In this document: one piece after another, positions 1,824 through 39,379 of the stretch
Numbering within the stretch: the stretch's first letter is position 1
Layout of the letters: every line of letters begins with the position of its first letter
DNA from: Clostridiaceae bacterium
GTDB lineage: Bacteria > Bacillota > Clostridia > Peptostreptococcales > T1SED10-28
Length of the DNA stretch: 64,000 bases
Direction: 5' to 3'
Assembly (NCBI GenBank): GCA_003554105.1
Contig: PWFQ01000006.1
Span: 3,036-67,035, forward strand
The notes under the pieces: model-generated
What the model saw: the letters and a program-made list of their open reading frames with translations, nothing else
Databases searched by the model: none
What the model was told of the DNA's origin: nothing
Position numbers and translations under genes: made by a program

Positions 1824-2972
1824 ATGGTAAAAACTGCGGAAGTGGTCATAATAGGAGGAGGGATATCAGGATGTGCCATCGCTTACAACCTTGCGAAAAA
1901 GGGTGTGAAGGATGTGGTGGTCATCGAGAAAGGTTATCTGGCCTCCGGTGCAACCGGAAGCTGCGGGGCAGGTATTCGTCAACAGTGGGGAACGGAGATG
2001 AACTGTAAAATTGCAAAAATGTCCTGTGAATTTTTTGAAACTGCCAATGAAGAACTGCAATATGACGGTGATATTGAATTTAAGCAGGGCGGCTACTTAT
2101 TGTTGGCCAGTACTGATAAAGAACATGAACAGTTTAAGAAGAATGTGGAATTGCAAAACTCTTTAGGAATTCATTCAAGAATGCTTAATCTTGATGAGGC
2201 AAAAAAGATTGTCCCCCATTTAAACACTGAGGGTCTTGTCAGTACTGCATTTTATGAAAAAGACGGACATTTAAATCCGTTTCATGCTACAGAGGCTTAC
2301 GGTAAAGCCGCGGAGCGCTTAGGCGCAAAAATTTATAAGTATACTGAAGTAACGGGTATAGAAGTGGAAAACGGCAGAGTGAAAAAAGTCAAGACAGACA
2401 AAGGGGATATTGAGACGAAGGTTGTCGTAAATGCCGCAGGTGGTCATTCCCAAGTTATAGCTGAAATGGCCGGTGTAGATATTCCTGTTTATTCTGAAAG
2501 ACACCAGATTTTAGTCACAGAACCACTTGAACCATTACTTGAGCCAATGTTAATGTCATTTTCGTTAAATATCTACTGTCAGCAGGTACCCCATGGAGGT
2601 TTTATTATGGGACGGGGAGATGATACCGAACCGAGAGATTTAAGAGTCACATCAAGTTGGCAATTTCTCGATGAGATGATTAAAACCGCAACCAGGGTTT
2701 TGCCTCCTCTTAAAAAAGCAAGACTTCTTCGGCAATGGGCAGGACTTTATAATATGACTCCCGACCGGCAACCGATTTACGGGAAGGTCGATGAAGTGGA
2801 AGGATTTTATCTTGCGGTCGGATTCAGCGGACACGGCTTCATGTTCGGACCGGCAACCGGGCTTTTGATGGCAGAATATATTCTTGGAGAAGAGCCGACA
2901 ATCAACATTGACATGTTAGGTCTGAAACGATTTGAATCGGGAGATCTGATTCTGGAACCGTCAGTCGTTTAA
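1824..2972 (+). CDS. FAD-dependent oxidoreductase, DAO family (sarcosine oxidase beta / HcnC / proline dehydrogenase beta-like subunit)
   Basis: 382 aa with an AGGAGG SD. N-terminal VVIIGGGISGCAIAYNLAKKG dinucleotide fold; overall DAO-like layout. Confidence 0.85.
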   Translation: MVKTAEVVIIGGGISGCAIAYNLAKKGVKDVVVIEKGYLASGATGSCGAGIRQQWGTEMNCKIAKMSCEFFETANEELQYDGDIEFKQGGYLLLASTDKEHEQFKKNVELQNSLGIHSRMLNLDEAKKIVPHLNTEGLVSTAFYEKDGHLNPFHATEAYGKAAERLGAKIYKYTEVTGIEVENGRVKKVKTDKGDIETKVVVNAAGGHSQVIAEMAGVDIPVYSERHQILVTEPLEPLLEPMLMSFSLNIYCQQVPHGGFIMGRGDDTEPRDLRVTSSWQFLDEMIKTATRVLPPLKKARLLRQWAGLYNMTPDRQPIYGKVDEVEGFYLAVGFSGHGFMFGPATGLLMAEYILGEEPTINIDMLGLKRFESGDLILEPSVV

Positions 2973-3013
2973 TACATCATCGATCGATAAAATTCAGGTA
3001 AGGAGTGAAAAAC

Positions 3014-3316
3014 ATGAGAATTGAAGACCATCCCGTTTTAGAGTTCAAGCGAGGAAAAAAAATATCTTTCACTTATAATGGCGAGAAGGTGGAGGGTTAT
3101 GAGGGAGAAACGATCGCAGCAGCATTGCATGCAGCGGGAGTACAAGTATTAAGCTACAGTGATCGGCATCGCCCCCGGGGATTCTACTGTGCTATCGGAA
3201 ACTGTTCCTCCTGTTTTATGGAGGTTAACGGAGAAAGCAACGTGAAAGTATGCATTGAACCCCTACAGGAAGGAATGGACGTTAAAACCCAAAAAGGAAA
3301 GGGTGAAATCGTATGA
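3014..3316 (+). CDS. (2Fe-2S)-binding small subunit (HcnA / SoxA N-terminal-like)
   Basis: ATG 3014 lies 8 nt after AAGGAG; the track start at 3005 is a GTG inside the SD. Motif RGFYCAIGNCSSCFMEVNGESNVKVC. The stop overlaps the next start (ATGA). Confidence 0.8.
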   Translation: MRIEDHPVLEFKRGKKISFTYNGEKVEGYEGETIAAALHAAGVQVLSYSDRHRPRGFYCAIGNCSSCFMEVNGESNVKVCIEPLQEGMDVKTQKGKGEIV

Positions 3317-4422
3317 AGAACGTAGAATTATTGGTGATCGGTGGAGGACCGGCAGGTCTGTGCGCAGCAATCAGTGCTGCTGAAGCTGGGGTAGATGTTT
3401 TATTGGCGGAAAGAGACGAATGGCTGGGAGGCCAACTGGTAAAACAGACTCATATGTTTTTCGGATCGGAAAAACAGCACGCCTCCGTCCGTGGAGTGGA
3501 TATCGGAAAATTGTTGGTCAAAAAAGTGGAAGAGTATAAAAACGTTGAAGTAATGAAAAACGCTACGGTTTTAGGACTTTATGAAGATCGGGTGGTTACC
3601 ATTCAACAGGACGGAAACTACGTAAAAGTAAATCCGAAGTCAGTGATTATCACAACCGGTGCAAGTGAAAAAACCCTTGTCTTCCCCAACAATGATCTGC
3701 CGGGAGTCTACGGTGCAGGGGCAGTTCAAACTCTTATGAATGTTTACGGAGTGAAGCCCGGAAACAAAGTACTTATGGTAGGGGCAGGAAATATCGGACT
3801 GATTGTAAGTTATCAACTAATGCAGGCAGGAGTCGACGTTGAAGCAATCGTGGATGCATCACCGAATATAGGAGGCTACCTGGTGCATGCGTCGAAAATT
3901 CGACGGATGGGAGTTCCGATTTTAACCCGTCACACTGTAAAAGAAGCCATCGGAAAAGAAGCTTTGGAAGCTGCGGTAATATGGGAACTGGATGACAAAT
4001 GGCAACCGATCCCCGGAAGCGAACAAAAACTGGATGTTGACGTTATGTGTATCTCGGTGGGACTTACCCCCCTTTCCGAACTGTTATGGCAAATCGGCTG
4101 TAAAATGGAATTTGTTGGTGAGCTTGGAGGCTTTGTACCGACACGAAGTGATAAACTGCAAACTTCCCTGGACGGAATTTTTGTAGCAGGAGATGTTGCA
4201 GGGGTTGAAGAAGCAAGTAGTGCCATGGTGGAAGGGAGCTTGGCGGGACTCTCCGCATCTTCATATTTAGGATATAAAATTGATGTGGTGAAAGAGCTGG
4301 AAAGAGACTATCTGAATCAGTTAAATGACTTACGATCCGGTCCGGTAGGAGAAAAAATCCGGCAGGGACTTGCAAAAGCTTTAATCAGCGAACAAGCTGC
4401 TAATCCGGGTCAAGGCTCATAA
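3313..4422 (+). CDS. NAD(P)/FAD-dependent oxidoreductase (HcnB / alpha-subunit-like, pyridine nucleotide-disulfide type)
   Basis: 369 aa with two Rossmann motifs: LLVIGGGPAGLCAAISAAEAG and VLMVGAGNIGLIVSYQLMQAG. Translationally coupled to the upstream gene. Confidence 0.85.
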   Translation: MKNVELLVIGGGPAGLCAAISAAEAGVDVLLAERDEWLGGQLVKQTHMFFGSEKQHASVRGVDIGKLLVKKVEEYKNVEVMKNATVLGLYEDRVVTIQQDGNYVKVNPKSVIITTGASEKTLVFPNNDLPGVYGAGAVQTLMNVYGVKPGNKVLMVGAGNIGLIVSYQLMQAGVDVEAIVDASPNIGGYLVHASKIRRMGVPILTRHTVKEAIGKEALEAAVIWELDDKWQPIPGSEQKLDVDVMCISVGLTPLSELLWQIGCKMEFVGELGGFVPTRSDKLQTSLDGIFVAGDVAGVEEASSAMVEGSLAGLSASSYLGYKIDVVKELERDYLNQLNDLRSGPVGEKIRQGLAKALISEQAANPGQGS

Positions 4423-4435
4423 AGGAGGAGAAAAG

Positions 4436-5221
4436 ATGTTAGAAAAAACAGGAGTACCTACAAAAGAACAAATTGATAGTGCCTTTCCGTCAGAGGAACG
4501 AATGAAAAAAGGACCGTTTGTGGTTGTGGAATGTTTCCAGAAGATCCCCTGCAACCCATGTTTTACAGCATGTAATCGTGACGGGATCAAAGCCTTTGAA
4601 GATATAAACGATCTGCCCGATGTCGATCATGACAACTGTAACGGATGCACTCTTTGTGTCAGTAAGTGTCCGGGTCTTGCCATTTTTGTTGTGGACATGA
4701 CTTATTCAGAAGATAAGGCGTTATTGAAAATCCCATACGAATTTTTACCGTTGCCCCAGGAAGGGGACCGGGTGATGGGACTCAGTCACGGGGGAGAAGA
4801 AGTGGAAAAGGTGGAAGTGATAAAAGTGCAAAATCCCAAAGGATTTGATAAAACTCCGGTGATTTCCCTTGCCGTCAGCAAAGACAAAGTTAAGGTAATA
4901 AGATCCATCAAAGTGCCAAAGGAGCGAGACCGATCGGAAGATGAAATCGTCTGCCGATGTTCCGATGTGACCCTTGAAGAGGTTAGAGAACTGATCCGTA
5001 CAGGGCACACCACCTTTGATGAAATCAAAAAGATCAGTCGTATCGGTATGGGTCCCTGTCAGGGAAGAACCTGCAGTCAACTGGTCATCAGGGAAATTGC
5101 AAGTATTACAGGCCAAGACCCGTCGAGCTTGTTACCGGGGACCTACAGACAGATCGTAAAATCCCTTGAAATGGGAAAAGTCATCGAAGCCCTTGAAAAG
5201 GAAGAACAGGAGAATAAGTAA
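4436..5221 (+). CDS. iron-sulfur subunit: N-terminal 4Fe-4S ferredoxin-type + C-terminal BFD-like [2Fe-2S] domain
   Basis: 261 aa with an AAAGGAGG SD. Motifs CNPCFTAC, CNGCTLCVSKCP and CRCSDVTLEEV...GMGPCQGRTC. Confidence 0.75.
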   Translation: MLEKTGVPTKEQIDSAFPSEERMKKGPFVVVECFQKIPCNPCFTACNRDGIKAFEDINDLPDVDHDNCNGCTLCVSKCPGLAIFVVDMTYSEDKALLKIPYEFLPLPQEGDRVMGLSHGGEEVEKVEVIKVQNPKGFDKTPVISLAVSKDKVKVIRSIKVPKERDRSEDEIVCRCSDVTLEEVRELIRTGHTTFDEIKKISRIGMGPCQGRTCSQLVIREIASITGQDPSSLLPGTYRQIVKSLEMGKVIEALEKEEQENK

Positions 5222-5353: not shown

Positions 5354-5752
5354 ATGAACATGAAAAAACTGGAAAAGTATGAAGAGAAGTGTATTGAATG
5401 TCATGCCTGTGAAGATGTTTGTGCAAAAACTTACTTCAAATCAGAAGACCGGGGAAAGTCCAGAATTGTCATCAACGAAGAGCTTGATGAAAAAGGTCAG
5501 AAAATTAACGTCTGCAATCAATGCGGAGAATGTATGGAAGTCTGTCCCGAGCTGGCCCTGACCAGAGACAAAAAAGGAGTAGTGCGGCTAGACAAAGACA
5601 AATGCGTTGAATGTCTGATCTGTGTCGGATTTTGTCCGTATCTTTCAATGAGAGTGCATAAAGATCTCCTCGAACCTTTCAAATGTATTGCCTGTGGACT
5701 CTGTGCCAAAGAATGTCCCACTGAGGCCATTGAAATCGTAGAGACTGTTTAG
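5354..5752 (+). CDS. ferredoxin with four [4Fe-4S] binding motifs (AorA-like electron-transfer subunit)
   Basis: 132 aa with four CxxCxxCxxxC(P) motifs: CIECHACEDVC, CNQCGECMEVCP, CVECLICVGFCP and CIACGLCAKECP. ATG 5360 is an alternative start. Confidence 0.85.
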   Translation: MNMKKLEKYEEKCIECHACEDVCAKTYFKSEDRGKSRIVINEELDEKGQKINVCNQCGECMEVCPELALTRDKKGVVRLDKDKCVECLICVGFCPYLSMRVHKDLLEPFKCIACGLCAKECPTEAIEIVETV

Positions 5753-5790: not shown

Positions 5791-7983
5791 ATGATGTCAG
5801 TTGTAATCGCAAAAGAACGAGTGGAAGAGATGAAGAATAACCGTAAGGTGTTAAAAGCCTTGGAATATACTCCGACGAAGGTGAATAGAGGGTATACCGA
5901 CAAGACTTTATATATTAACTTAACTGACAACCAGGTGGAGTTTAGGGATATTCCTGAAATGGTGAAAGAGAAATTTATTGGGGGAAAAGGGTATGGTCTG
6001 TGGCATCTATGGAATGGAATTAAAGATGACACGAAGTGGAATGATCCCGAGAATGAAATTGTGATTTCTCCGGGACCGATTGCTGGAATTACCCAGTACC
6101 CCGGAGCAGGAAAATCCTTAGTTGTGAGCATCTCCCCAATCACAGGAACGGTTATTGACAGTAATGTGGGCGGACACTTTGGTCCTCTTATGAAGTTTTC
6201 AGGATTTGATGCACTGGAAATTCAAGGGAAAGCGGAAAAGGATGTGGTGGTGTTTATCGATGGAAATAAAGGAACGATCTCCATTGAGGAAGCACCGGTG
6301 GAAACCATCGACAGCCATATTCTTGCAGAAGAGTTAACGGAAATGTACGCAGATGATGAAGAAGACAAGCGACATATCTCTGTGGTCTCTTCGGGTCAAG
6401 CTGCAGAGCATAGTTATATCGGATTATTGAACTTCAGTTTTTATGATAAGCGGAAAAAAGCCCAACGGTTAAAACAAGCGGGTCGCGGTGGAATCGGTAC
6501 TGTGTTCAGAGATAAAAAAATCAAAGCCCTGATTGTGAAGTATAAAGGCGTAAAAGGTGACAGCAATCATCCAGCCGATGTTGAAAAAATTAAGCAGGTT
6601 GGGATGAAGCTTCATAAGGAAGTCCATGACTTTGACGATGAGCAATGCCAAATGAGACAGGTGGGAACGGCAAATCTCTTCGAAACTATGAGCGATTATG
6701 ATCTGCTTCCTGTAAACAACTTCCAGTACGGATCTCATAAGGATGCTGCCGCTACTGGCGGACGAGCTGCCCTTAAAAAGGTCTTGCAGCAGAATGAGCC
6801 AGACGGATGTTGGTTCGGATGTTCAATGTCCTGTGCGAAGTCTGCAGTGGAGTACGAGCTTCAAACCGGACCTTATAAAGGACAGAAGGTCGTTGTTGAT
6901 GGACCTGAATATGAGACCATCGCAGGGGTTGGAAGCAACTGTGGAATCTTCGACATCGATTATGTATTGGAATGTAATTTCTACTGTGACACCTATGGAG
7001 TGGACACGATCTCCTTCGGTACATTAACCGCCTTCGCCATGGAATGCTATGAGCGGGGAGTAATCGATAAGGAAGTTACCGGCGGTTTGGAGATGACCTT
7101 CGGAAATAAAGATGCTGCAATGGAGCTCCTGCACCAGATGGCAAGAGGTGAAGGATTTGGTGTGGTTGCTGGCAAAGGTGTGCGGGCAATGAGAGAACTT
7201 TTCGTCAAAGAGTACGGAGCAGATGAAAACCTGCTTTTGGATATCGGAATGGAATCAAAGGGACTTGAGTATTCTCAATATGTTTCAAAGGAATCTTTAG
7301 CACAGCAGGGTGGTTACGCATTAACCAATAAAGGTCCTCAGCATGATGAGGCATGGTTGATTTTTATGGATATGGTGAATAATCAAATTCCGACCTTTGA
7401 TGACAAAGCGGAAGCTCTTCACTACTTCCCAATGTTCAGAACCTGGTTTGGTCTTCAGGGTCTCTGTAAATTGCCATGGAATGACGTTGAGCCCATAAGC
7501 AACAGAGACATCGAAGGACCGGAAGCAGCCAAGGTTCCCGAACATGTACAGAACTATGTTGACCTGTACAATGCGGTGACGGGTAACAATATTGATAAGC
7601 AGGAAATGATTCTTCAATCGGAAAGAGTCTATAACTTCCAAAAGGTTTTTAACATCCGTCTCGGTGTCGTGGGAATTGAAGGAGACCGGGCACCATACCG
7701 TTCCGTCGGGCCGGTAACGAAGGAAGAATATCTATCGCGGGAAGATCGATATGACAAACAAATGAAAGAAAAGATCGGTGTTGATCCTGAAGGAAAAAGC
7801 GTAGAGGAGAAAATGGCGATCACAAGAGAATTCAGAGAGTCACAATTCGCTCAGCTGCGGGATACGGTCTATAAGCGTAGAGGATGGACTGTTGAAGGAA
7901 TTCCTACACTTGAGCATCTTCAAAATATCGGCATGGACCTTCCTGAAGTGATGGAAGTAGTAAAGCCCTACTTGAGCAAGTAA
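5791..7983 (+). CDS. aor: aldehyde:ferredoxin oxidoreductase family (tungstopterin enzyme)
   Basis: 730 aa. AOR hallmarks are KFIGGKGYGLW near the N-terminus, DGPEYETIAGVGSNCGI and a C-terminal YKRRGW...GIPT. Confidence 0.9.
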   Translation: MMSVVIAKERVEEMKNNRKVLKALEYTPTKVNRGYTDKTLYINLTDNQVEFRDIPEMVKEKFIGGKGYGLWHLWNGIKDDTKWNDPENEIVISPGPIAGITQYPGAGKSLVVSISPITGTVIDSNVGGHFGPLMKFSGFDALEIQGKAEKDVVVFIDGNKGTISIEEAPVETIDSHILAEELTEMYADDEEDKRHISVVSSGQAAEHSYIGLLNFSFYDKRKKAQRLKQAGRGGIGTVFRDKKIKALIVKYKGVKGDSNHPADVEKIKQVGMKLHKEVHDFDDEQCQMRQVGTANLFETMSDYDLLPVNNFQYGSHKDAAATGGRAALKKVLQQNEPDGCWFGCSMSCAKSAVEYELQTGPYKGQKVVVDGPEYETIAGVGSNCGIFDIDYVLECNFYCDTYGVDTISFGTLTAFAMECYERGVIDKEVTGGLEMTFGNKDAAMELLHQMARGEGFGVVAGKGVRAMRELFVKEYGADENLLLDIGMESKGLEYSQYVSKESLAQQGGYALTNKGPQHDEAWLIFMDMVNNQIPTFDDKAEALHYFPMFRTWFGLQGLCKLPWNDVEPISNRDIEGPEAAKVPEHVQNYVDLYNAVTGNNIDKQEMILQSERVYNFQKVFNIRLGVVGIEGDRAPYRSVGPVTKEEYLSREDRYDKQMKEKIGVDPEGKSVEEKMAITREFRESQFAQLRDTVYKRRGWTVEGIPTLEHLQNIGMDLPEVMEVVKPYLSK

Positions 7984-8010: not shown

Positions 8011-8039
8011 GGGGCGGAGTTGAGACTTCGCCCCTTTTC
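8011..8039 (+). terminator. rho-independent terminator after aor
   Basis: GGGGCGGAGT / ACTTCGCCCC stem (one mismatch), TGAG loop, then TTTT. Confidence 0.6.
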
Positions 8040-8083
8040 ATGTTAGAATGGTTTTAGATAGAGGATACAATAGAGGTGATAGA

Positions 8084-8281
8084 ATGATTCAGGTAAACGG
8101 AAGAAATCACGAATGGTATGAAGGAATGACAATTGAAAGCCTTTTAAAAGATCTGAACTACACCTACCCGATTTTGGTGATACGGATCAACGGAACATTA
8201 ATTGATAAAGAAGACTATTCTGCAACCAAAGTACAGAAGGGTGACGATGTGAAAATCATCCATCCTATTGCCGGAGGTTAA
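8084..8281 (+). CDS. ThiS/MoaD-family sulfur-carrier protein (C-terminal Gly-Gly)
   Basis: 65 aa from ATG 8084 (AGAGGTGA SD). Starts MIQVNG, ends DDVKIIHPIAGG-stop, which is the ThiS-like pattern. The track start at 8048 is probably too far upstream. Confidence 0.75.
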   Translation: MIQVNGRNHEWYEGMTIESLLKDLNYTYPILVIRINGTLIDKEDYSATKVQKGDDVKIIHPIAGG

Positions 8282-8293
8282 AGGAGGGTTATT

Positions 8294-8584
8294 GTGAAAA
8301 TCAAAAAAATTTCTGACTGGTTAAGAAACTATGTGGAAAATCATGGAGGTTGTCTGTGGATTGAGGAGCGAAATGTCATTAAAGGATGATGAATGGTTTT
8401 TAAAGGACCATCAGGTTTGGTGGTAAAACCGGAAGGAAATAAGGAATGGATTGAAGCAACCGTTGAAGGAAAAGACTTGAAATTCTTTCTGGACAAGGAA
8501 TTATGGGAAAATGTCAAGGAGAAAAAGGCGATAACCATGCATCTGGAAGGATATGGGCGGTTTGTTCTTGAAATTGAGACTTAG
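8294..8584 (+). CDS. HesB/IscA-like small protein with in-frame TGA-TGA (candidate selenoprotein); alternatively two coupled sORFs, 8294..8392 and 8393..8584
   Basis: GTG 8294 follows a strong AAGGAGGG SD. The frame reads 31 codons, then TGA TGA (8387-8392), then ATG 8393 in the same frame for 63 more codons. The joined 96 aa follow a HesB-like pattern. Confidence 0.45.
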
Positions 8585-8611
8585 AGAGGATCTGCTCTCT
8601 AAGTTTTTTTA
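8581..8611 (+). terminator. rho-independent terminator
   Basis: TTAGAGAG / CTCTCTAA perfect 8-bp stem, 6-nt loop, followed by G + T7. Confidence 0.7.
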
Positions 8612-8678: not shown

Positions 8679-11600
8679 ATGGCGAAGATTCGACTTCGAC
8701 TTTTTGGTCCACCGGAGATTTATAAAAATGATGAAAAAGTGTTTTTACCCTATCGTAAGGCAGAGGCGCTTTTTTACTATCTAGTGATTCAAAAACAGGC
8801 AACGAGAGAGGAACTCGTAGGCCTTTTTTGGGGTGAAATCCAGGATGAACTGGCGAAGAAAAATCTTCGGAATGCCATGTATAAAATTCGTAAAGCCTTT
8901 GACATGGAGGTGATTCACTCGCCTCAAAAATCCATTGTTCTCTTAAACGATGAAATATCAATTATCTCGGATTACCATCAGATAATGAAGAATCCTTCTG
9001 AAATGACGGATCTTTATCGTGGAGAATTCTTAAAAGGCTTCTCTGTCAAAGATGAAGCAATGTTTTCTCATTGGCTGGAAAATCAAAGGACCCTTTTCGA
9101 AAGCCAATATATTTCAGTGCTTTATAAGGAAGTGGAAAAAGCAACTAAACAAAAAGATTTTCATATGGGCGAAAAAATAAGCAAGGAAATTATCGAGCAG
9201 GATCCCTATGATGAGAGAGCCTATCGTTTATTAATGAATGTGTATGACGAATTTTCCCTTCCAAACAAAGGATTGGAAGTTTTTCAAAACCTTGCCCGTT
9301 TTTTGGAAGAAGAGTTGGGAGTGGAGCCTTCAGAGGATACACGACGTCTCTATAGGCGTATGCAGAAAGAACAACAGCAAAGGAAAGTAGAAGGAACAAA
9401 GAAAAAGAAGTCCTTTTACTTTGGCCGGGAGAGGGAATTAGAACAGATTCGAAGAGGTTTATTTGAGGATGTTAAAGGGGACGGAAAGACCTTTGTATTG
9501 ATTCAGGGAGAAGCGGGGATCGGTAAAACCTCTATTGTTGAACATCTCTTCGAAGAGTTTCAAGAGGAAGGGTTTCTGGTTTTTCAAACGGAATGCTTCG
9601 GTGCAGAGAAGAATTATATACTCAAGCCCTGGAATCCCATCATCTCTCAACTTATTCCCTATATTGAAAAGCAGAAAATAAAAATTCAATCTCCCTGGGG
9701 GAATGTTTTAAAAAGAGCCTTTCCCCAGCTGCAAACCTGGGATCATGAAGGGGGAGGAGAATATATTGATGGAAGTGTAGCCGGCAAGGTTGAGGATCAG
9801 CTCATTGAAGAGGGGATTGTTGAGGTTTTTCGCCACATCCAAGGCTCAGGGAAAGTGTTATTAATTTTTGAGGACTTACAGTGGATTGATGAAAAAAGCC
9901 TTCGACTGCTGACAAATTTGATGCTAAAATATCCAAAGAACCGGTTGAGGGTATTGGCAACATATCGAGGAGGGGATCGTCGGGATGTGGATCTTTTTCT
10001 TTCCCTTGCATATCAAAAGGGGATCCTGGAAAAGCTGGAACTAAAAAGATTTACAAGGGAAGAGACAAAAAATCTTGTAGAAAATTATCTTCTTTATTCC
10101 GAGGATAAAAAGACCTTAAAAGGGTTAAGCGATCTATCGGAGGGTTTTGATCAAATTTATGAGGAAACCGAAGGAAATCCTTTTTTTCTGATGGAGTATT
10201 TGAATCGAATCGGGAAAAGTCAGGGACAGAATACTCATGGACCCAAGGAGGAAGACCTTTTGAGAAGCCGTTTTGTCAACCTTTGTCAACAAGCGGAGGA
10301 AGTGGCGGAATTAACGGCACTCTTTTTTGATAAGGCCGAAATGAAAGAACTGATCAATCTTATGAGTCTTTCTGAATCCACGTTGATTGACCGCTTGGAG
10401 AACTTAATCAATGAGGGAATCCTCAAGGAGGAAGCCTCGGGAGAAAATATCTACTATCGTTTTACCCATCAAAAACTCCGGGAGTACTGTTATGATAAAC
10501 AAAGCAAAGCAAGACGAAGGCATTCTCACCGGAGAATCGGCGAATATATGGAAAACAGGCTGGGAAATAATTGGGAGGACCATATGCTTTTTTCCAAGCT
10601 CATCTACCATTTTGAACGGGCGGGGCATTATAAAAAAGCTCTCAATTACAGCATTCAAAACTTGAAATATTATGTAGACTTTAGTCATGAACTGTTTCCT
10701 GTCTTAGAGGAAAAAGGGAATCAGGATGATCACCCATACTACTTATCGAAGCATCAAATTATCAAAGAACTGGAAGATATGGGGGAGTTGCTGGAAAAAG
10801 CAAAAAGGGGAGTCAACGGAACAGAGGATCTTTACGAGGAGGAAGTATACTTCCGTTACATCAAGGGAAGGTATCTTATTCGTCGTGGAGATTATGACGC
10901 AGGCATGGAAGAAATAAATCGTATTATTTCTTTAGCTGAAAAGCAAAAGGATTACAGAAGCCTGATTAAAGCATATAAACAGAAGGTTTACTATGGGATT
11001 CAAACCTATCAAAGAGACACCATGAAAGAAAACCTCGAGTTGGGATTCAGGAACCTCAAGATGATTGATTATCCTAAAGAAGAAGCGGTATATTATCGGT
11101 TGTTTGGTCTATATCACATGATGATGGAGAACTACGAGCAGGCTGATGAAACCTTGAGATACTCAATCCGTCTTTTTAATCAGATTCCCGGAGATCAAGG
11201 GAAATATAAGCTGAACATTGCTGCCGGCTATAATTATCTTGGTGAAATTCGACGCATTCAAATGAAGTTCTTTGAAAGTCTTAAGTATTACGATCAAGCA
11301 ATTAAAATTTGTGAGGATCAGGAAATTTTTCGGGGGCTGAATGTTTTTTACACAAAAGCAGGGCAAGCAGCATTTGACGGAGGAGACTTTCTGCGGGCGA
11401 AAAACTATTTTGTGAAAGCCTTGAATCTCTATGGAAAAGAAGATGCGCTTTGGGGACGGTCCATTGCGGAAGGATTTATGGCATTGATTCTGTTCCGGGA
11501 GGAGATGTACGAATCATCATTGAAGTGTCTTAAAAACGCTGAGAAATTCAGCATAAAAATGAAAAATCCCTATGAGTTGGGGATTGTTTATCGGATAAAA

Positions 11601-11780
11601 AGCGGAATCAAACGGGAAATGATGAGTAAGCGGGTGATCCCCTCCTTTTATCGTCAAGCTCTTTCAAAGGATTTGTCCTACTATTGCAAGAAGGGAATCG
11701 AGAATCTGAATCAGGTTGATGGAAACTATGAAATTCATATTCTCAGACGATTAGACGCTTTAGCGACGATAAAGAGTTAA
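8679..11780 (+). CDS. SARP/AfsR-type regulator: winged-helix + BTAD domain, P-loop NTPase (STAND-like), C-terminal TPR-like repeats
   Basis: 1033 aa. N-terminus IRLRLFGPPEIYKNDEKVFLPYRKAEALFYYL...; BTAD-like ERAYRLLMNVY...LEEELGVEPSEDTRRLY. Walker A is IQGEAGIGKTS and Walker B is LLIFEDLQWID. The C-terminal half is long and helical-repeat. Confidence 0.8.
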   Translation: MAKIRLRLFGPPEIYKNDEKVFLPYRKAEALFYYLVIQKQATREELVGLFWGEIQDELAKKNLRNAMYKIRKAFDMEVIHSPQKSIVLLNDEISIISDYHQIMKNPSEMTDLYRGEFLKGFSVKDEAMFSHWLENQRTLFESQYISVLYKEVEKATKQKDFHMGEKISKEIIEQDPYDERAYRLLMNVYDEFSLPNKGLEVFQNLARFLEEELGVEPSEDTRRLYRRMQKEQQQRKVEGTKKKKSFYFGRERELEQIRRGLFEDVKGDGKTFVLIQGEAGIGKTSIVEHLFEEFQEEGFLVFQTECFGAEKNYILKPWNPIISQLIPYIEKQKIKIQSPWGNVLKRAFPQLQTWDHEGGGEYIDGSVAGKVEDQLIEEGIVEVFRHIQGSGKVLLIFEDLQWIDEKSLRLLTNLMLKYPKNRLRVLATYRGGDRRDVDLFLSLAYQKGILEKLELKRFTREETKNLVENYLLYSEDKKTLKGLSDLSEGFDQIYEETEGNPFFLMEYLNRIGKSQGQNTHGPKEEDLLRSRFVNLCQQAEEVAELTALFFDKAEMKELINLMSLSESTLIDRLENLINEGILKEEASGENIYYRFTHQKLREYCYDKQSKARRRHSHRRIGEYMENRLGNNWEDHMLFSKLIYHFERAGHYKKALNYSIQNLKYYVDFSHELFPVLEEKGNQDDHPYYLSKHQIIKELEDMGELLEKAKRGVNGTEDLYEEEVYFRYIKGRYLIRRGDYDAGMEEINRIISLAEKQKDYRSLIKAYKQKVYYGIQTYQRDTMKENLELGFRNLKMIDYPKEEAVYYRLFGLYHMMMENYEQADETLRYSIRLFNQIPGDQGKYKLNIAAGYNYLGEIRRIQMKFFESLKYYDQAIKICEDQEIFRGLNVFYTKAGQAAFDGGDFLRAKNYFVKALNLYGKEDALWGRSIAEGFMALILFREEMYESSLKCLKNAEKFSIKMKNPYELGIVYRIKSGIKREMMSKRVIPSFYRQALSKDLSYYCKKGIENLNQVDGNYEIHILRRLDALATIKS

Positions 11781-11838: not shown

Positions 11839-13359
11839 GTGATAAAAATTGATGGAAATCATTTAAGTTTGGAGCAATTTGCGGACGTGGTCCTGCAAGG
11901 ACAGGAAGTGGCATTGGAAGTTGGAGCCATTGAAAAAGTTCACCGGGCAAGGGATCTTGTTAACCGGTATGTTGAGGAGGAACGGGTTTCCTATGGAATC
12001 ACCACCGGTTTTGGGAAATTCAGTGATGTGGTGATTTCAAAGGAAGAGACGGAGGAGCTGCAGAGGAATCTGATTATCAGCCATGCCTGTGGCATAGGCG
12101 ATCCTTTCTCAGAAGAAGAAACCCGGGGAATTATGCTTCTTCGTGCCAATGCCTTGGCGAAAGGATTCTCAGGAGTTCGTCTGAAGGTGATTGAAACACT
12201 GTTGAAAATGCTCAATAAGCGGGTGCATCCCATCATTCCGGAAAAAGGGTCTTTAGGTGCCAGCGGGGATCTTGCACCTCTTTCCCATATGGTCCTGGTC
12301 ATGATTGGTGAGGGAGAAGCGATCTACAACGGGTCTCTCATGAGCGGAAAAGAAGCCATGGAGAAAGCGGGCATTGAAACAATCGTATTAACTGCCAAAG
12401 AGGGTCTCGGACTGATCAATGGTACTCAGGCGATGACTTCAGTGGGAGCTCTTACCTTATACAGAGGGATACAACTGTCGAAAATTGCAGATATTTCTTC
12501 CGCTCTTACCGTGGAAGCGCTAAATGGAATTATTGATGCCTTTGATCCAAAGGTTCATGAAGTTCGACCCCACAGCGGTCAAATTACAACAGCATCCAAT
12601 TTACTTCGTTTGCTTGATGAGAGTCAATTAACCACCCATCAGGGTGAAATGCGGGTTCAAGATCCCTATACTTTACGATGCTTACCGCAAATCCATGGAG
12701 CAACCAAGGATGCTTTGGCATTTATCAAAGAAAAAGTTGAAATCGAAATGAATGGAGTGACTGACAATCCTCTCATTTTTACAGAGGAGGACCAGGTCAT
12801 TTCCGGAGGGAATTTCCACGGTCAACCTATGGCACTGCCCTTCGATTTTCTAGCCATTGCACTTGCAGAACTTGCAAACGCAGCTGAGCGGAGAATTGAG
12901 CGACTGGTAAATCCTCAGCTCAGCGGTCTTCCTGCTTTTCTAACGGAAAAGGGAGGTCTTCATTCCGGCTTGATGATTGCTCAATACTCTGCAGCGGCCC
13001 TGGTTTCTGAAAACAAGATCCTGGCCCATCCTGCCAGTGTAGATTCAATTCCTTCTTCAGCAAATCAGGAGGATCATGTAAGCATGGGAACCATTGCCGC
13101 AAGGAAAGCGAGAGAGATCGCTTTCAATACTTCGAGGGTTCTGGGAATAGAATTGATGACAGCAGCCCAGGCCATTGAGTTTAAGGAATCAAAGGAGTTG
13201 GGCAAAGGAACCATGATCGCATATAAAACTCTCAGAAAGTCATTAAAACCCCTTAAAGAAGACCGGATTCTCTACCGGGATATCAATATTGCCTCGGAAA
13301 TGATTGATAACAATCAAATTCTCAATGCAGTGGAAGAAACTGTGGGATCCCTGGATTAA
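11839..13359 (+). CDS. hutH: histidine ammonia-lyase
   Basis: 506 aa. GTG start after GAGGAGG. MIO-forming GSLGASGDLAPLSH, YGITTGFGKFSD and NLIISHACG. Confidence 0.9.
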   Translation: MIKIDGNHLSLEQFADVVLQGQEVALEVGAIEKVHRARDLVNRYVEEERVSYGITTGFGKFSDVVISKEETEELQRNLIISHACGIGDPFSEEETRGIMLLRANALAKGFSGVRLKVIETLLKMLNKRVHPIIPEKGSLGASGDLAPLSHMVLVMIGEGEAIYNGSLMSGKEAMEKAGIETIVLTAKEGLGLINGTQAMTSVGALTLYRGIQLSKIADISSALTVEALNGIIDAFDPKVHEVRPHSGQITTASNLLRLLDESQLTTHQGEMRVQDPYTLRCLPQIHGATKDALAFIKEKVEIEMNGVTDNPLIFTEEDQVISGGNFHGQPMALPFDFLAIALAELANAAERRIERLVNPQLSGLPAFLTEKGGLHSGLMIAQYSAAALVSENKILAHPASVDSIPSSANQEDHVSMGTIAARKAREIAFNTSRVLGIELMTAAQAIEFKESKELGKGTMIAYKTLRKSLKPLKEDRILYRDINIASEMIDNNQILNAVEETVGSLD

Positions 13360-36331: not shown

Positions 36332-37880
36332 GAAAAGGAAAAGACAGCTATATTATCTGATTCCTGCCATGGTTCTCTGGGGTTTTATATCCTGGCAGAT
36401 CAACTTCAGCTTGATTCGTTTATGGCGTGGTATTCCCCATATGTTTAACTTGATTGGGAGAATGTTGCAGCCGGATTTCTCTTATATCCTGCAGGTGCTT
36501 CCCCGTCTTATGGAAACCATCGAAATGGCAGCTGTTTCCTCAACTCTGGGGGTGATTCTTGGATCTCTCGGAGCATTATTTGTTGCGAGAAATACTGCAA
36601 TTCATCCCATTATCCCATTATTGGGAAATCCCTTTTTTACCTTCTTAAGAACGATTCCGAATCTGATTTGGGCTGCAATCCTTGTGAGTATTTTTAGTGT
36701 TGGGAAATTCCCGGGAATGATAGCACTAACGATTACAGCTACCCTCATTACAGTTAAATTGCTGCGTGAATACATAGAGACAATTCCGGAAAGCGTGATA
36801 AAAGGTGTGGAAAGTGTAGGGGCGACAAAAATACAAACCTTGCGATACGGAGTTTTACCAATGGTTTTTCAACAAATGGCTGCAGTGTTTTTTCTGGTTC
36901 TGGAAGTCAACATTCGGGGTGCAACAATCCTCGGACTTGTGGGGGCGGGAGGAATCGGGCAGATTTTATGGAGAGATCTGAACCATTTACGGTACGATAA
37001 TCTTGCAACACTGATTATCCTTCTTTTTGCAACAATTCTTGTCATCGACTTGGGAAGTCTGTGGCTTCGAAAGGGACTTAAAGATCTTTACATTCCCGCA
37101 AAGACGATTCCCATCTTTCGCTTGCGTCAAAAGGTTAAATGGATCGTGGTATTTCTTTTGTTGATCGTTGGTATGACATGGCTTGTGAACAGCTTAGACA
37201 TTACTGCCGAGCGAATGATTCTGGGATTGGAGTCAGGAGCAAGAATGGTTTTACGTATGGCTCAGTTTGAGTTCAGTTATGCCCCAAGGCTTGTGGAAGG
37301 ACTTATGGAAAGTCTTTTCATTGCTCTTTTCGCAACGGTTACAGGAGGGGTCGGTGCATTATTTTTATCCTATTTAACCGCTTATAACACTTCCCCCTAT
37401 CCTGAAGTTGCTTTGTTTTTCAAGGCGGTGGTCAATCTTTTGAGGACATTTCCTCCGATTGTTGTGGCGATTATCTTTTTCAGGGGAGTGGGACCCGGCC
37501 CTTTAGCAGGGGCGATGGCTCTTAGTATTTACACGTTAGGAGTTATGACAAAACTCTATAGTGAAGTGATAGAGAGTACAGGAGAAAACATTCAACAGGG
37601 AATTTTAATCACCGGTGCGGGAAAAATTTTGAGTTATCGATTCGGAATTGTGCCCCACACCTTTTCAAATTATATAAGTCTTTTACTCTATCGTTTTGAG
37701 TCAAACATGAGGAACTCAACAATTTTAGGTGTGATTGGAGCCGGAGGGATAGGAACAATTCTGGCCAACAATATTGCCTGGAGAAACTGGGAACGTGTAG
37801 GATTGTTGCTGGCTGGTGTGGCGATCCTTATGATGGCTGTTGAGAAACTTAGCGAGAAAATACGGAAAAAACTGGTGTGA
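36303..37880 (+). CDS. phnE: phosphonate ABC transporter permease, tandem-fused PhnE-PhnE
   Basis: ATG 36303 lies 7 nt after AGGAG. Two similar halves each end with NxRxATILGLVGAGGIG / NMRNSTILGVIGAGGIG. Confidence 0.8.
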   Translation: MKIYKSSIRRKRKRQLYYLIPAMVLWGFISWQINFSLIRLWRGIPHMFNLIGRMLQPDFSYILQVLPRLMETIEMAAVSSTLGVILGSLGALFVARNTAIHPIIPLLGNPFFTFLRTIPNLIWAAILVSIFSVGKFPGMIALTITATLITVKLLREYIETIPESVIKGVESVGATKIQTLRYGVLPMVFQQMAAVFFLVLEVNIRGATILGLVGAGGIGQILWRDLNHLRYDNLATLIILLFATILVIDLGSLWLRKGLKDLYIPAKTIPIFRLRQKVKWIVVFLLLIVGMTWLVNSLDITAERMILGLESGARMVLRMAQFEFSYAPRLVEGLMESLFIALFATVTGGVGALFLSYLTAYNTSPYPEVALFFKAVVNLLRTFPPIVVAIIFFRGVGPGPLAGAMALSIYTLGVMTKLYSEVIESTGENIQQGILITGAGKILSYRFGIVPHTFSNYISLLLYRFESNMRNSTILGVIGAGGIGTILANNIAWRNWERVGLLLAGVAILMMAVEKLSEKIRKKLV

Positions 37881-38670: not shown

Positions 38671-38836
38671 TCCTTTTTATAAATGATTGTATACGTTTGG
38701 AATTTTATAAGATGATTATACCATAAAGGTAAAAAAAGAAGAATTTTTGGAATGTATATTGAAAAAAGTGCGAAATTGTGAAAGAATAGGGATATAAGAA
38801 TCACTTATGGATAAACATGGGAGAGGGATGTTTGCA

Positions 38837-38944
38837 ATGAGGATAACCACTTTGAAAGGAATTATCGTTTTATTAATCCTAATAATAATTTTTGGCGGTT
38901 TCGGATGTACAGAGGCAGGACGTGAAGAAGGACAGAACGGATGA
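38837..38944 (+). CDS. 35-codon signal-peptide-like ORF ending in a TGA that is in frame with the rhodanese ORF
   Basis: MRITTLKGIIVLLILIIIFGGFGCTEAGREEGQNG-TGA, with a GGGAGAGGG SD upstream. Too short to appear in the ORF track. Confidence 0.3.
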   Translation: MRITTLKGIIVLLILIIIFGGFGCTEAGREEGQNG

Positions 38945-38962
38945 GTCGCAGTACCCTTTCAG

Positions 38963-39379
38963 ATGGATTCTGATGAAGAGTGGCCATGTTTTTATTCTGA
39001 TGTGGACGAGGCCCGACCGGATGTCGCTCACTACTTCAATGAGTTATCAAGGAACAATCATTTTGTAACAGCAGAAGACTTGAGTGATGCCCTGCTGGAA
39101 AATCCTGAGGGAATTTTTCTCCTGGATATACGAGAGGAAGAGTACTATGAAAGAGAACATATAGAAGGGGCAGTCCATATCTGGTGGCATGATGTGGGAG
39201 ATCGCCTTGAGGAACTTCCGAAAGACAAACCGATTGTCGTGGTTTGTAATACAGGACAGAGTGCCGCCCAGCTGGTGGGTGTTCTTCAATCACTGGGATA
39301 CAGAATATACTCTTTACTCGGGGGAATGAATAACGGATGGCTCCCCGAAGGATATCCGGTGATCACCATCCAGGAATAA
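38963..39379 (+). CDS. rhodanese-domain sulfurtransferase
   Basis: 138 aa. FLLDIREEEYYEREHIEGAVHI and active-site loop VVVCNTGQSAAQ. No SD precedes ATG 38963. Confidence 0.8.
   Translation: MDSDEEWPCFYSDVDEARPDVAHYFNELSRNNHFVTAEDLSDALLENPEGIFLLDIREEEYYEREHIEGAVHIWWHDVGDRLEELPKDKPIVVVCNTGQSAAQLVGVLQSLGYRIYSLLGGMNNGWLPEGYPVITIQE

What the first reader, a model, noticed from the sequence alone, without database searches (positions are those of the whole stretch)
8294..8584. Two consecutive in-frame TGA codons inside a HesB-like reading frame: candidate Sec-Sec selenoprotein
Seen in the sequence: GTG 8294, 5 nt after a strong AAGGAGGG SD, reads VKIKKISDWLRNYVENHGGCLWIEERNVIKG. TGA TGA (8387-8392) follows. 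The same frame then continues from ATG 8393 as MVFKGPSGLVVKPEGNKEWIEATVEGKDLKFFLDKELWENVKEKKAITMHLEGYGRFVLEIET and stops at TAG. The downstream ATG has only a weak AAAGGA SD. The joined 96 aa follow the HesB/IscA (Fe-S biosynthesis-type) layout: an N-terminal helix, a beta strand, then a Gly-rich turn that carries the conserved Cys in IscA-type proteins (...GGGCSG...). The two UGA codons sit exactly in that turn (IKG-U-U-MVFKG). Two hairpins lie 3' of the UGAs. The first pairs 8390-8397 with 8407-8413. The second pairs GGTTT (8414-8418) with AAACC (8426-8430) around a G-rich 7-nt loop GGTGGTA, starting about 27 nt after the second UGA. Established knowledge: HesB-like proteins are a recognised bacterial selenoprotein family. 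Sec normally replaces a redox Cys. Bacterial SECIS elements are hairpins whose apical loop lies roughly 16-37 nt downstream of UGA. Elsewhere in this window TGA is a genuine but minority stop, used by about 11 of 52 genes and often in ATGA overlaps. Inference: this is a single selenoprotein gene. A Sec-Sec dipeptide would be rare for bacteria. The alternative is two translationally coupled micro-ORFs (31 and 63 aa).
Basis: partly seen in the sequence, partly recalled or inferred. Interest (0 to 1): 0.75.

Follow-up and report, generated by a model that had tools for sequence, protein, structure and literature searches.

The report
Small protein with two adjacent selenocysteines
The two in-frame TGA codons are real and are kept in every relative found, so this is most likely one 96-residue selenoprotein with two neighbouring selenocysteines, an arrangement missing from the current catalogue of bacterial selenoproteins; it is related to the known "CC/Se motif" family rather than being a recognised HesB protein.

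Summary
In detail: GTG 8294, 31 codons, TGA TGA (8387-8392), ATG and 62 more codons, TAG 8584. The TGA-TGA pair is kept in frame in all 12 distinct homologous sequences I recovered. These fall into four lineages that are only 27-37% identical in protein sequence to the window. Both flanks evolve as protein. The codon after the pair varies (ATG, GTG or TCT). In the TCT lineage no start codon follows, yet the conserved A-Y-x-x-P-S-G segment continues in frame, which rules out the "two coupled micro-ORFs" alternative there. With Cys in place of Sec, the joined proteins match NCBIfam NF041239 "CC/Se motif family (seleno)protein" across the junction, and the pair sits on the profile's two Cys columns. 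All scores stay below the curated cut-off. A hairpin with a GG-containing loop lies 24-27 nt downstream in every lineage. On related contigs a catalogued selenoprotein gene lies 1-2 kb away. HesB membership is not supported by sequence models; a weak structure model and a weak profile comparison only hint at an IscA-like fold. Sec machinery in the source genome could not be checked. Function is inferred: a diselenol carrier co-transcribed with a ThiS/MoaD-like protein next to a tungsten-type aldehyde oxidoreductase.

The parts
8294..8584 (+). Single reading frame of 96 sense codons: GTG start, 31 codons, UGA-UGA read as Sec-Sec, 63 codons, TAG stop. Candidate tandem-Sec selenoprotein.
   Evidence: sequence. 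(frame and junction conserved in four lineages). (NF041239 match spans the junction).
8387..8392 (+). The two consecutive in-frame TGA codons (predicted Sec32-Sec33).
   Evidence: Never replaced by TAA, TAG or a sense codon in 12 distinct homologues. They align to the two Cys-preferring columns of NF041239: CC 19.5 bits, AC 14.3, CA 16.5, AA 12.0, deletion gives no hit. In lineage C, CC to AA costs 8.3 bits.
8395..8430 (+). SECIS-like hairpin: lower stem 8395-8400/8425-8430, 6-nt 5' internal loop, upper stem 8407-8413/8418-8424, apical loop GGUU 8414-8417 (24-27 nt after the two UGAs).
   Evidence: MFE fold of the window (z -1.65 to -2.07). Same architecture folded independently in L021 and L091. 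93.8% of cells paired on 5 sequences and 86.8% on 7, against 29-54% when slid. Two compensatory pairs between lineages A and B. The five central pairs are paired in 7 of 7 sequences and the loop GG is invariant. Synonymous sites are frozen in the core in lineages C and D (0/4 against 19/25 variable, Fisher p=0.009).
8281..8288 (+). Shine-Dalgarno AAGGAGGG for the GTG 8294 start. It begins at the last two bases of the ThiS-like gene's TAA stop.
   Evidence: The same AAAGGAGGG and start position are found in L001, where the start is ATG.
8576..8607 (+). Intrinsic-terminator-like hairpin and T-run overlapping the TAG stop. It marks the end of the transcription unit.
   Evidence: 13 pairs, followed by TTTATTTTAT.
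8048..8281 (+). ThiS/MoaD-family small sulfur-carrier gene ending in Gly-Gly, 12 nt upstream of the selenoprotein start. Other gene callers start it at ATG 8084 (65 aa).
   Evidence: TIGR01683 ThiS 57.8 bits and PF02597. The ThiS-then-X order is conserved in L001, L021 and L091.
8011..8049 (+). Terminator-like hairpin (8011-8034) after the oxidoreductase gene, overlapping a promoter-like site (8020-8049, 10 of 12 matches with TG). Suggests ThiS plus the selenoprotein may form their own bicistronic unit.
   Evidence: consensus scans only, not evidence of function.
5791..7983 (+). Aldehyde:ferredoxin oxidoreductase family (tungsten/molybdopterin enzyme) gene, 730 aa.
   Evidence: PF02730/PF01314 on the identical gene in related loci. 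NF007354 partial hit. 66% identical AOR precedes ThiS-X in L021.
5354..5752 (+). Poly-[4Fe-4S] ferredoxin gene preceding the oxidoreductase.
   Evidence: many Fer4-type NCBIfam hits..

Best explanation
Positions 8294-8584 encode one small protein of 96 residues in which two consecutive UGA codons are read as selenocysteine, giving a G-U-U-M active-site turn (a vicinal diselenol/diselenide). Inferred mechanism: SelB carrying Sec-tRNA(Sec) is recruited by the hairpin at 8395-8430, whose GG-containing loop lies 24-27 nt downstream. It must deliver Sec twice in succession from this single element. The protein belongs to a clade of tandem-Sec proteins that is a sister group or outlier of the known CC/Se-motif family (NF041239/PF28096). 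The motif of that family is G-C-C-G. The clade may have an IscA-like fold, with the first Sec at the position of IscA Cys35. Function is inferred with low confidence. It is probably a carrier or relay that binds a chalcogen or a soft metal(loid) on the two selenols. In most relatives the gene sits in arsenic/metalloid-resistance islands. In this genome and in lineage B it is co-transcribed with a ThiS/MoaD-type sulfur carrier just after a tungsten-type aldehyde oxidoreductase. There it most plausibly takes part in sulfur (or selenium) transfer for cofactor maturation, or in handling the metal. What is shown: conservation of the junction, coding on both sides, the family relationship, the conserved hairpin, and Sec use in organisms carrying relatives. 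What is inferred: actual Sec insertion at both codons in this organism, the double use of one SECIS, the fold, and the function.
For: (1) TGA-TGA is conserved in frame in 12 distinct sequences from four lineages, 27-37% identical to the window protein. A metagenome scan whose pattern allowed TGA, TGC or TGT at both positions returned only TGA-TGA. (2) Both sides are translated. In the N-terminal segment 9 of 13 invariant residues show synonymous codon variation, and the S-P-W-L-x-[ND]-Y motif is conserved. (3) The codon after the pair is ATG, GTG or TCT. In L097/L098 (…HG-UGA-UGA-TCT-GCT-TAC-AGA-GCA-CCA-TCT-GGA…) the next ATG lies 10 codons downstream, inside the conserved region. (4) NF041239 is matched collinearly across the junction: window 19.5 bits (E 7.6e-4), lineage B 28.6-30.0, lineage C up to 34.0 (E 2.4e-8). 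The halves alone give nothing, and both Cys columns contribute. Precomputed PF28096 'CC_Se_fam' hits fall on relatives. (5) The hairpin is conserved in register, with two compensatory pairs, an invariant GG in the loop, and frozen synonymous sites. (6) In L101, L102 and L104 the ArsP_1 permease 1-2 kb away carries an in-frame TGA in TPF-U-SCS; the Cys form TPFCSCS is in L100. This matches the catalogued SO_0444-family selenoprotein motif UxC, so those organisms decode Sec. (7) The other genes on the low-GC contigs have no internal TGA, so an alternative genetic code is not supported.
Against: No selA, selB, selC or selD, no tRNA and no other selenoprotein gene was found in the 64-kb window, so Sec competence of this organism is untested. 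No homologue with real Cys codons at the pair was seen; the Cys correspondence rests on profile probing only. All NF041239 scores are below the curated 40-bit cut-off. With lineage C included, covariation in the hairpin no longer exceeds the shuffle control (152/500), and the lineage C hairpin is weak (z about -1). No Rfam SECIS family matches. In E. coli, by my recollection of the literature rather than any test here, the UGA-to-SECIS spacing is tightly constrained, so two adjacent insertions from one element lack a known precedent. In the window itself an ATG with an SD-like AAAGGA follows the pair, so re-initiation cannot be excluded for this particular gene from sequence alone.
Confidence: 0.78

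Rival explanations
1. Two separate, translationally coupled micro-ORFs. A 31-residue peptide ends at a genuine double stop, and a 63-residue protein starts at ATG 8393 using the AAAGGA upstream.
For: Every gene caller called only the 61-65-residue downstream ORF. AAAGGA (window) or AGAGG (L021) lies 6-7 nt before the ATG. Two ordinary genes in the window end in TGA-TGA. In L102-L106 a TGA directly followed in frame by the ATG of the next gene (DUF2703) shows that such junctions occur between real genes.
Against: Lineage D has TCT after the pair and no start codon before the conserved A-Y-x-x-P-S-G segment. The residue after the pair varies (M, V, S). The two parts stay in the same frame with zero spacing in four lineages. 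Both stops stay TGA although TAA is the commonest stop here. The joined sequence, but neither half alone, matches a single-chain family, with the pair on its Cys columns.
Confidence: 0.1
2. UGA read-through by something other than Sec: a TGA=Trp or TGA=Gly genetic code, or near-cognate suppression inserting Trp or Cys.
For: Gene callers translated the pair as 'WW' on the Logan contigs (P0016, P0017). The source genome's Sec machinery is unverified.
Against: TGA terminates 9 of 50 genes in the window. On L097-L100 no other gene has an internal TGA, and the ArsR gene ends at a TGA the caller read through. Replacing the pair with WW abolishes the NF041239 match, whereas CC supports it. A neighbouring permease has TGA exactly at a conserved Cys. 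A correctly placed hairpin is conserved.
Confidence: 0.04
3. A disrupted gene or an assembly artefact: a pseudogene, or a sequencing error creating the stops.
For: One assembly (L006) has an extra A in the A-run at the start of the gene, showing that errors occur in this region.
Against: The identical junction occurs in more than 20 independent assemblies from different samples and in four diverged lineages, with purifying selection on both sides.
Confidence: 0.01

Closest known systems
CC/Se motif family (seleno)protein, NCBIfam NF041239 (Moor_selen_rel) / Pfam PF28096 CC_Se_fam. First predicted in Moorella thermoacetica and listed in the 2026 review PMC13188914, Table 1.
   Same: Small single-domain protein of about 90 residues. 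Collinear profile match across nearly the whole length. The two adjacent chalcogen residues fall on the profile's two Cys-preferring columns, preceded by Gly. The family is already known to include selenoproteins. Relatives sit among thiol, metalloid and arsenic genes.
   Different: Scores are 19.5-34 bits against a 40-bit curated cut-off. Both positions are Sec (U-U), whereas the catalogue lists one Sec for the family. The residue after the pair is M, V or S, where the profile strongly prefers Gly (+4.5 bits). The clade has its own conserved motifs (S-P-W-L-x-N-Y, P-S-G-x-x-x-K-P, E-G-Y-G). In this genome the neighbours are a ThiS/MoaD carrier and an aldehyde oxidoreductase.
HesB-like selenoprotein (TIGR01911) and A-type Fe-S carriers IscA/SufA/ErpA (PF01521)
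   Same: Similar size and order of secondary-structure elements. There is a Gly-flanked Cys/Sec turn after the second strand; hhalign aligns G-C-C-m-a-f with IscA G-C35-S-G-m-a-y. The best PDB fold matches of the model are IscA, SufA and HesB structures. In TIGR01911 the Sec also replaces that first Cys (family description as I recall it, plus motif UxGP in PMC13188914).
   Different: No sequence-model match at E<=10. hhalign probability is 0.9% with P=0.06. Foldseek E>=0.046 and TM<0.5 on a model with pLDDT 60. The C-terminal C-G-C cluster ligands are absent. There are two adjacent Sec instead of one.
Vicinal dichalcogenide sites: ArsD metallochaperone Cys12-Cys13, the MerA C-terminal Cys-Cys, and mammalian thioredoxin reductase Gly-Cys-Sec-Gly (all recalled from the literature, not tested here)
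   Same: Two adjacent Cys/Sec residues in a Gly-flanked flexible turn that bind As(III) or Hg(II) or shuttle electrons. Relatives of this protein lie next to arsD, arsA, acr3 and arsR.
   Different: No sequence or fold relationship was shown. None of these is known with Sec at both positions.
Multi-Sec prokaryotic selenoproteins catalogued in PMC13188914 (UxxU metal-binding protein NF041115, FmdB-family UxxU, TsoB UxxxxU, MbdU, VhuD)
   Same: More than one Sec in a small metal-binding or redox protein.
   Different: In all of these the Sec residues are separated by at least two residues or lie in separate motifs. None is listed with adjacent U-U.

Membership tests
HesB-like selenoprotein / HesB-IscA family (TIGR01911, TIGR00049, PF01521) | Match to the family's sequence models | tested here: not met
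   No HesB/IscA model is listed at E<=10 for the joined protein (with CC) or for relatives in NCBIfam or Pfam.
HesB-like selenoprotein / HesB-IscA family | Sec/Cys aligned with the first conserved Cys of the HesB domain (IscA Cys35) | tested here: inconclusive
   hhalign of 11 clade sequences against 4 PDB-verified IscA-family sequences aligns G-C-C with G-C35-S-G over 73 collinear columns, but probability is 0.9% and P=0.062.
HesB-like selenoprotein / HesB-IscA family | C-terminal C-x-C (CGCG) cluster-ligand motif | tested here: not met
   The window protein ends …GYGRFVLEIET with no Cys. Only lineage D ends in a single Cys.
HesB-like selenoprotein / HesB-IscA family | IscA-type fold | tested here: inconclusive
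   AlphaFold model of homologue P0016: pLDDT 60, pTM 0.50. Foldseek against PDB: six of the top seven hits are IscA/SufA/HesB structures, but E is 0.046-0.9 and TM 0.38-0.48.
CC/Se motif family (NF041239 / PF28096) | Profile score at or above the curated cut-off (40 bits) | tested here: not met
   Window 19.5 bits, L001 form 21.7, lineage B 28.6-30.0, lineage C 30.7-34.0.
CC/Se motif family (NF041239 / PF28096) | Significant, collinear, near full-length similarity | tested here: met
   Window residues 5-87 against profile 4-80 of 91, E 7.6e-4. Lineage C residues 6-71 against profile 5-70, E 2.4e-8. It is the only family hit. Precomputed PF28096 (weak) falls on P0016, P0017, P0021, P0026 and others.
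CC/Se motif family (NF041239 / PF28096) | Adjacent Cys-Cys (or Cys/Sec) motif at the conserved turn | tested here: met
   The UGA pair occupies the only two Cys-preferring columns. Window: AC -5.2, CA -3.0, AA -7.5 bits; deletion, XX and WW give no hit. Lineage C: -5.1, -3.3, -8.3 bits. Cys at flanking positions gains at most 1.6 bits.
CC/Se motif family (NF041239 / PF28096) | Gly immediately after the pair (G-C-C-G, inferred from the profile) | tested here: not met
   M34G raises the score by 4.5 bits in both backgrounds. The clade has M, V or S at this position.
Bacterial selenoprotein (general criteria) | In-frame UGA conserved among homologues, with coding sequence on both sides | tested here: met
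   12 distinct sequences in four lineages. Synonymous variation is seen on both sides.
Bacterial selenoprotein (general criteria) | Cys-containing homologues with Cys aligned to the UGA | tested here: inconclusive
   Shown only through the NF041239 profile. No individual Cys-form sequence was retrieved.
   The loop starts 27 and 24 nt after the first bases of the two UGAs. The hairpin is conserved in register in all lineages. Compensatory changes occur between lineages A and B. Synonymous sites are frozen in C and D. The covariation statistics are weak.
Bacterial selenoprotein (general criteria) | selA, selB, selC and selD present in the same genome | not testable with these tools
   None in the 64-kb window. 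The source species is not in the reference-genome collection (best AOR hit 71%). Attempts to reach beyond the window failed. Indirect support: a second selenoprotein gene lies next to relatives in lineage C.

The most novel reading that the evidence does not exclude
This is a natural, family-wide case of two consecutive UGA codons both decoded as selenocysteine in bacteria. It would be served by a single downstream SECIS hairpin and would yield a vicinal diselenol/diselenide active site, which has not been catalogued among prokaryotic selenoproteins. In this lineage the protein would have been recruited as partner of a ThiS/MoaD-type carrier beside a tungsten aldehyde oxidoreductase. That would suggest a selenium-based relay in cofactor sulfuration or metal handling.
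Probability: 0.45. Interest if true: 0.85.

Novelty: new variant of a known kind. Interest (0 to 1): 0.68.

Why it matters
Bacterial Sec insertion is understood as one SelB delivery per SECIS, at a fixed distance from one UGA. A conserved UGA-UGA pair would require two back-to-back deliveries from the same element, or a tolerance in spacing that has not been characterised. That would give a natural system for testing how SelB reloads and how strict the spacing rule is. Chemically, an adjacent Sec-Sec pair would form an eight-membered diselenide ring with very low redox potential and very high affinity for soft metals and metalloids. This fits the arsenic-island neighbourhood of most relatives. 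It also raises the question of what such a site does next to a sulfur-carrier protein and a tungsten enzyme. On the practical side, every gene caller truncated these genes to the C-terminal 61-65 residues or mistranslated the pair as Trp-Trp. The clade is therefore invisible in protein databases, and the current family model misses it at its curated threshold.

Tried and rejected
1. HesB/IscA sequence membership: no model hit, rejected as a family assignment and kept only as a weak fold-level hint.
2. An exhaustive HMMER search with the C-terminal 63-residue profile found only its own cluster plus spurious repeat proteins.
4. The first metagenome scan with protein-derived patterns confirmed nothing. 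My own DNA pattern then worked.
5. Of 80 AOR neighbourhoods from reference genomes, only one held a homologue, so the protein is not a general AOR accessory.
6. Sec machinery or other selenoproteins in the window: none. The in-frame-TGA scan gave mostly noise, and the two candidates looked at are not selenoproteins.
7. No tRNA-Sec on 13 related loci.
8. No Rfam SECIS match, even locally at E<=10.
9. A TGA=Trp code on the contigs where the pair was called 'WW': rejected.
10. No plasmid homologues with curated annotation.
11. A PDB sequence-profile search found nothing.
12. The local Pfam copy lacks PF28096, so no Pfam score could be computed.
13. Literature: Haft & Tolstoy 2025 is not held. Searches for adjacent or consecutive Sec returned only noise. 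The GOS and ISME papers cited for the family do not describe it in the text.
14. Two look-ups meant to reach beyond the window's 3' end failed.
Full report
**1. Observation**

- AAGGAGGG lies at 8281-8288, and GTG 8294 opens a frame of 31 codons (VKIKKISDWLRNYVENHGGCLWIEERNVIKG).
- TGA 8387-8389 and TGA 8390-8392 follow.
- The same frame continues from ATG 8393 for 63 codons to TAG 8582-8584.
- A terminator-like hairpin and T-run overlap the stop (8576-8607).

In this window TGA ends 9 of 50 long ORFs (TAA 33, TAG 8). Two ordinary genes end in TGA-TGA. A tandem TGA by itself is therefore not remarkable here. The case rests on comparison with relatives.

**2. Relatives**

The first protein search found only two close relatives, and both were called as the 63-residue downstream piece. 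Their DNA shows the same arrangement. In L001/L002 (79% identical) the junction reads ATG, 31 codons, TGA TGA, ATG, in the same ferredoxin-AOR-ThiS context, with synonymous and non-synonymous changes in the upstream part.

I then fetched 80 neighbourhoods of AOR homologues from reference genomes and searched them locally with TGA read through. One distant homologue appeared, in L021 (lineage B, 33% identical). It also lies after ferredoxin-AOR-ThiS and again reads …TIRG-TGA-TGA-ATG…. L091 belongs to the same lineage.

A metagenome scan used a junction pattern that accepted TGA, TGC or TGT at both positions. It returned four loci of a third lineage (C), all with TGA-TGA.

A profile of the three lineages then retrieved 17 more proteins. 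Most are 52-63-residue C-terminal pieces. P0016 and P0017 were called full length with 'WW' at the pair.
- Their DNA has TGA-TGA followed by TCT: …CAT GGG TGA TGA TCT GCT TAC AGA GCA CCA TCT GGA…. This is lineage D.
- The other genes on those contigs have no internal TGA, so the 'WW' is a gene-caller artefact and not an alternative genetic code.

In total, 12 distinct sequences in four lineages, 27-37% identical to the window protein outside its own lineage, keep the pair.

**3. One protein or two?**

The rival reading is a 31-residue peptide plus a re-initiated 63-residue protein. Several results argue against it.
- In lineage D no ATG, GTG or TTG follows the pair until 9-10 codons downstream, inside the conserved region, yet the conserved A-[FY]-x-x-P-S-G segment continues in frame. 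The L097/L098 differences there are synonymous.
- The residue after the pair is M, V or S across the clade.
- Both parts evolve as protein. In the N-terminal part 9 of 13 invariant residues show synonymous codon variation.
- The two stops are never TAA or TAG, although TAA is the usual stop in this genome.
- The joined sequence matches a single-chain family across the junction (section 4).

For the window gene itself, an ATG with an SD-like AAAGGA does follow the pair, so re-initiation cannot be formally excluded from sequence alone. I give the rival about 0.1.

**4. Family**

With Cys substituted for Sec, the joined window protein matches only NCBIfam NF041239, 'CC/Se motif family (seleno)protein' (Moor_selen_rel). 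The score is 19.5 bits, E 7.6e-4, residues 5-87 against profile 4-80 of 91. Neither half matches alone.

Probing the profile gave these scores:

| Variant of the window protein | Score (bits) |
|---|---|
| CC | 19.5 |
| AC | 14.3 |
| CA | 16.5 |
| AA | 12.0 |
| Deletion, XX, WW or a single C | no hit |
| C20A | 21.4 |

- Lineage B scores 28.6-30.0 bits and lineage C up to 34.0 bits (E 2.4e-8), in the same register. There CC to AA costs 8.3 bits.
- Only these two columns prefer Cys.
- Gly is preferred right after them (+4.5 bits in both backgrounds), whereas the clade has M, V or S.
- All scores are below the curated 40 bits.
- Precomputed Pfam hits name PF28096 'CC_Se_fam' on several relatives. 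The local Pfam copy lacks that model.

The 2026 review PMC13188914 lists this family as a predicted selenoprotein family with one Sec. Among its 119 families and subfamilies the multi-Sec motifs are UxxU, UxxxxU, two separate CU and the like. No adjacent U-U is listed.

**5. HesB?**

No HesB/IscA model matches at E<=10, and the C-terminal CxC of A-type carriers is absent. A fold-level hint remains.
- An AlphaFold model of P0016 is poor (pLDDT 60, pTM 0.50; the loop with the pair is below 50).
- Even so, six of its seven best PDB matches are IscA, SufA or HesB structures (E 0.046-0.9, TM 0.38-0.48).
- hhalign of 11 clade sequences against four PDB-verified IscA-family sequences is collinear over 73 columns. 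It aligns G-C-C-m-a-f with G-C35-S-G-m-a-y, but with probability 0.9% and P=0.062.

I treat an IscA-like architecture as plausible and unproven, and HesB family membership as not met.

**6. SECIS**

The window's minimum-energy fold downstream of the pair has three parts (z -1.65 to -2.07):
- a lower stem 8395-8400/8425-8430;
- a 6-nt 5' internal loop;
- a 7-bp upper stem 8407-8413/8418-8424 with apical loop GGUU (8414-8417).

L021 and L091 fold independently into the same architecture at the same alignment columns.

| Alignment | Cells paired | Paired when slid | Shuffles reaching the observed paired % / covariation score |
|---|---|---|---|
| 5 sequences (lineages A and B) | 93.8% | 29-54% | 2/500 and 2/500 |
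| 7 sequences (with lineage C) | 86.8% | 33-53% | 152/500 and 144/500 |

- On five sequences each helix has one compensatory pair (U-A to C-G, and A-U to C-G).
- On seven sequences the five central pairs are paired in 7 of 7 and the loop GG is invariant. The lineage C hairpin is weak on its own.
- In lineages C and D the core codons Pro-Ser-Gly-Leu use one codon each in seven distinct sequences. Elsewhere 19 of 25 invariant residues with degenerate codons vary (Fisher p=0.009).
- No Rfam family matches.

The hairpin has the position and loop expected of a bacterial SECIS. RNA-level constraint is supported; formal covariation is thin.

**7. Sec competence**

The window holds no selA, selB or selD, no tRNA and no other convincing selenoprotein gene. 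The source species is not in the reference-genome set, and I could not reach beyond the window.

There is indirect evidence. On three independent lineage C contigs the ArsP_1 permease gene 1-2 kb away has an in-frame TGA in TPF-U-SCSSIP, where L100 has TPFCSCS. This matches the catalogued SO_0444-family selenoprotein motif UxC. Organisms carrying relatives of this gene therefore decode Sec.

**8. Context and function**

- In lineages A and B the gene follows a ThiS/MoaD-family gene by 12 nt. That gene has a C-terminal Gly-Gly (TIGR01683 57.8 bits).
- The pair lies downstream of a poly-ferredoxin and an AOR-family enzyme. L021 shares the DAO, Pyr_redox and BFD genes as well.
- A terminator-like hairpin and a promoter-like site between AOR and ThiS suggest that ThiS and this gene may form their own unit.
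- MoaD-like genes in bacterial AOR operons are regarded as tungsten-cofactor maturation factors (PMC6365974).
- In lineages C and D the gene sits instead among arsR, arsD, arsA, acr3-type SBF, DUF2703, ArsP_1 permease and Thioredoxin_3 genes.

The common denominator is chemistry of soft metal(loid)s and chalcogens on adjacent selenols. My best guess, at low confidence, is a small carrier or relay protein. Here it would work with the ThiS-like thiocarboxylate carrier, for example by holding and resolving a persulfide or perselenide, or it would handle the metal for the oxidoreductase.

**9. Verdict**

The HesB label is not supported. The protein is a tandem-Sec variant related to the known CC/Se motif family, so I rate it a new variant of a known kind. 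The main gaps are the untested Sec machinery of the source organism, the lack of any individual Cys-form homologue, and the absence of experimental evidence that both codons are decoded.

Noticed in passing
window 38798-39379 (+): An in-frame TGA (about 38942-38944) separates a lipoprotein-type signal peptide (…LLILIIIFGGFGCTEAGREEGQNG) from a rhodanese-like domain (…VVVCNTGQSAAQ…). The mechanical ORF starts only at ATG 38963. It could be a pseudogene, read-through or chance. It is not at a Cys-like site.
   Followed up: no
window 37875-37880 and 63489-63494: Two ordinary genes (an ABC-type permease and a 323-residue ORF) end with tandem TGA-TGA stops, so double TGA is also used as a genuine terminator in this genome.
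   Followed up: partly
L101 12064-13080; L102 10856-11872; L104 10853-11869: The ArsP_1 (PF03773) permease was called in two pieces because of an in-frame TGA in the motif TPF-U-SCSSIP (Cys form TPFCSCS in L100). It fits the catalogued SO_0444-family selenoprotein (NF033936, motif UxC).
   Followed up: yes
L102-L106, end of the tandem-Sec gene (e.g. L102 about 10190-10195): The tandem-Sec gene ends with TGA followed directly, in the same frame, by the ATG of a Cys-rich DUF2703 gene (…EEP-TGA-ATG-AAT…). This is presumably a real stop, but a third recoding event giving a fusion protein was not excluded.
   Followed up: no
L097-L100 (Logan contigs, about 30% GC): The gene caller applied a TGA=Trp code to these contigs. 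It produced 'WW' at the Sec pair and extended the ArsR gene past its TGA stop. This is a database artefact that hides selenoproteins or mistranslates them.
   Followed up: yes
L006 (NCBI GCA_001025115.1, LCWY01000025.1), equivalent of window 8303-8309: The A-run at the start of the gene has 8 A instead of 7, which would shift the frame of the N-terminal part. All other assemblies of this lineage have 7, so a homopolymer assembly error is likely.
   Followed up: partly
window 8387-8413 and the same region in all lineages: The 5' arm of the hairpin (CCAUC) is also complementary to the UGAUG of the tandem UGA codons, giving an alternative hairpin. Whether this competition has a role is unknown.
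   Followed up: partly
window 1824-5221 and L021 1-2660: A cluster of DAO-type FAD oxidoreductase, 2Fe-2S (Fer2_4), Pyr_redox_2 and BFD/SO_alpha_A3 proteins (opine- or sarcosine-oxidase-like) precedes the ferredoxin-AOR genes in both lineage A and lineage B, with a different gene order. This suggests a conserved amine or amino-acid to aldehyde to acid pathway.
   Followed up: no
window 8679-11780 (+): A 1033-residue BTAD / AAA_16 (STAND-type ATPase) / TPR regulator lies immediately downstream of the terminator and is conserved in lineage A loci. A histidine/aromatic ammonia-lyase follows at 11839-13359.
   Followed up: no
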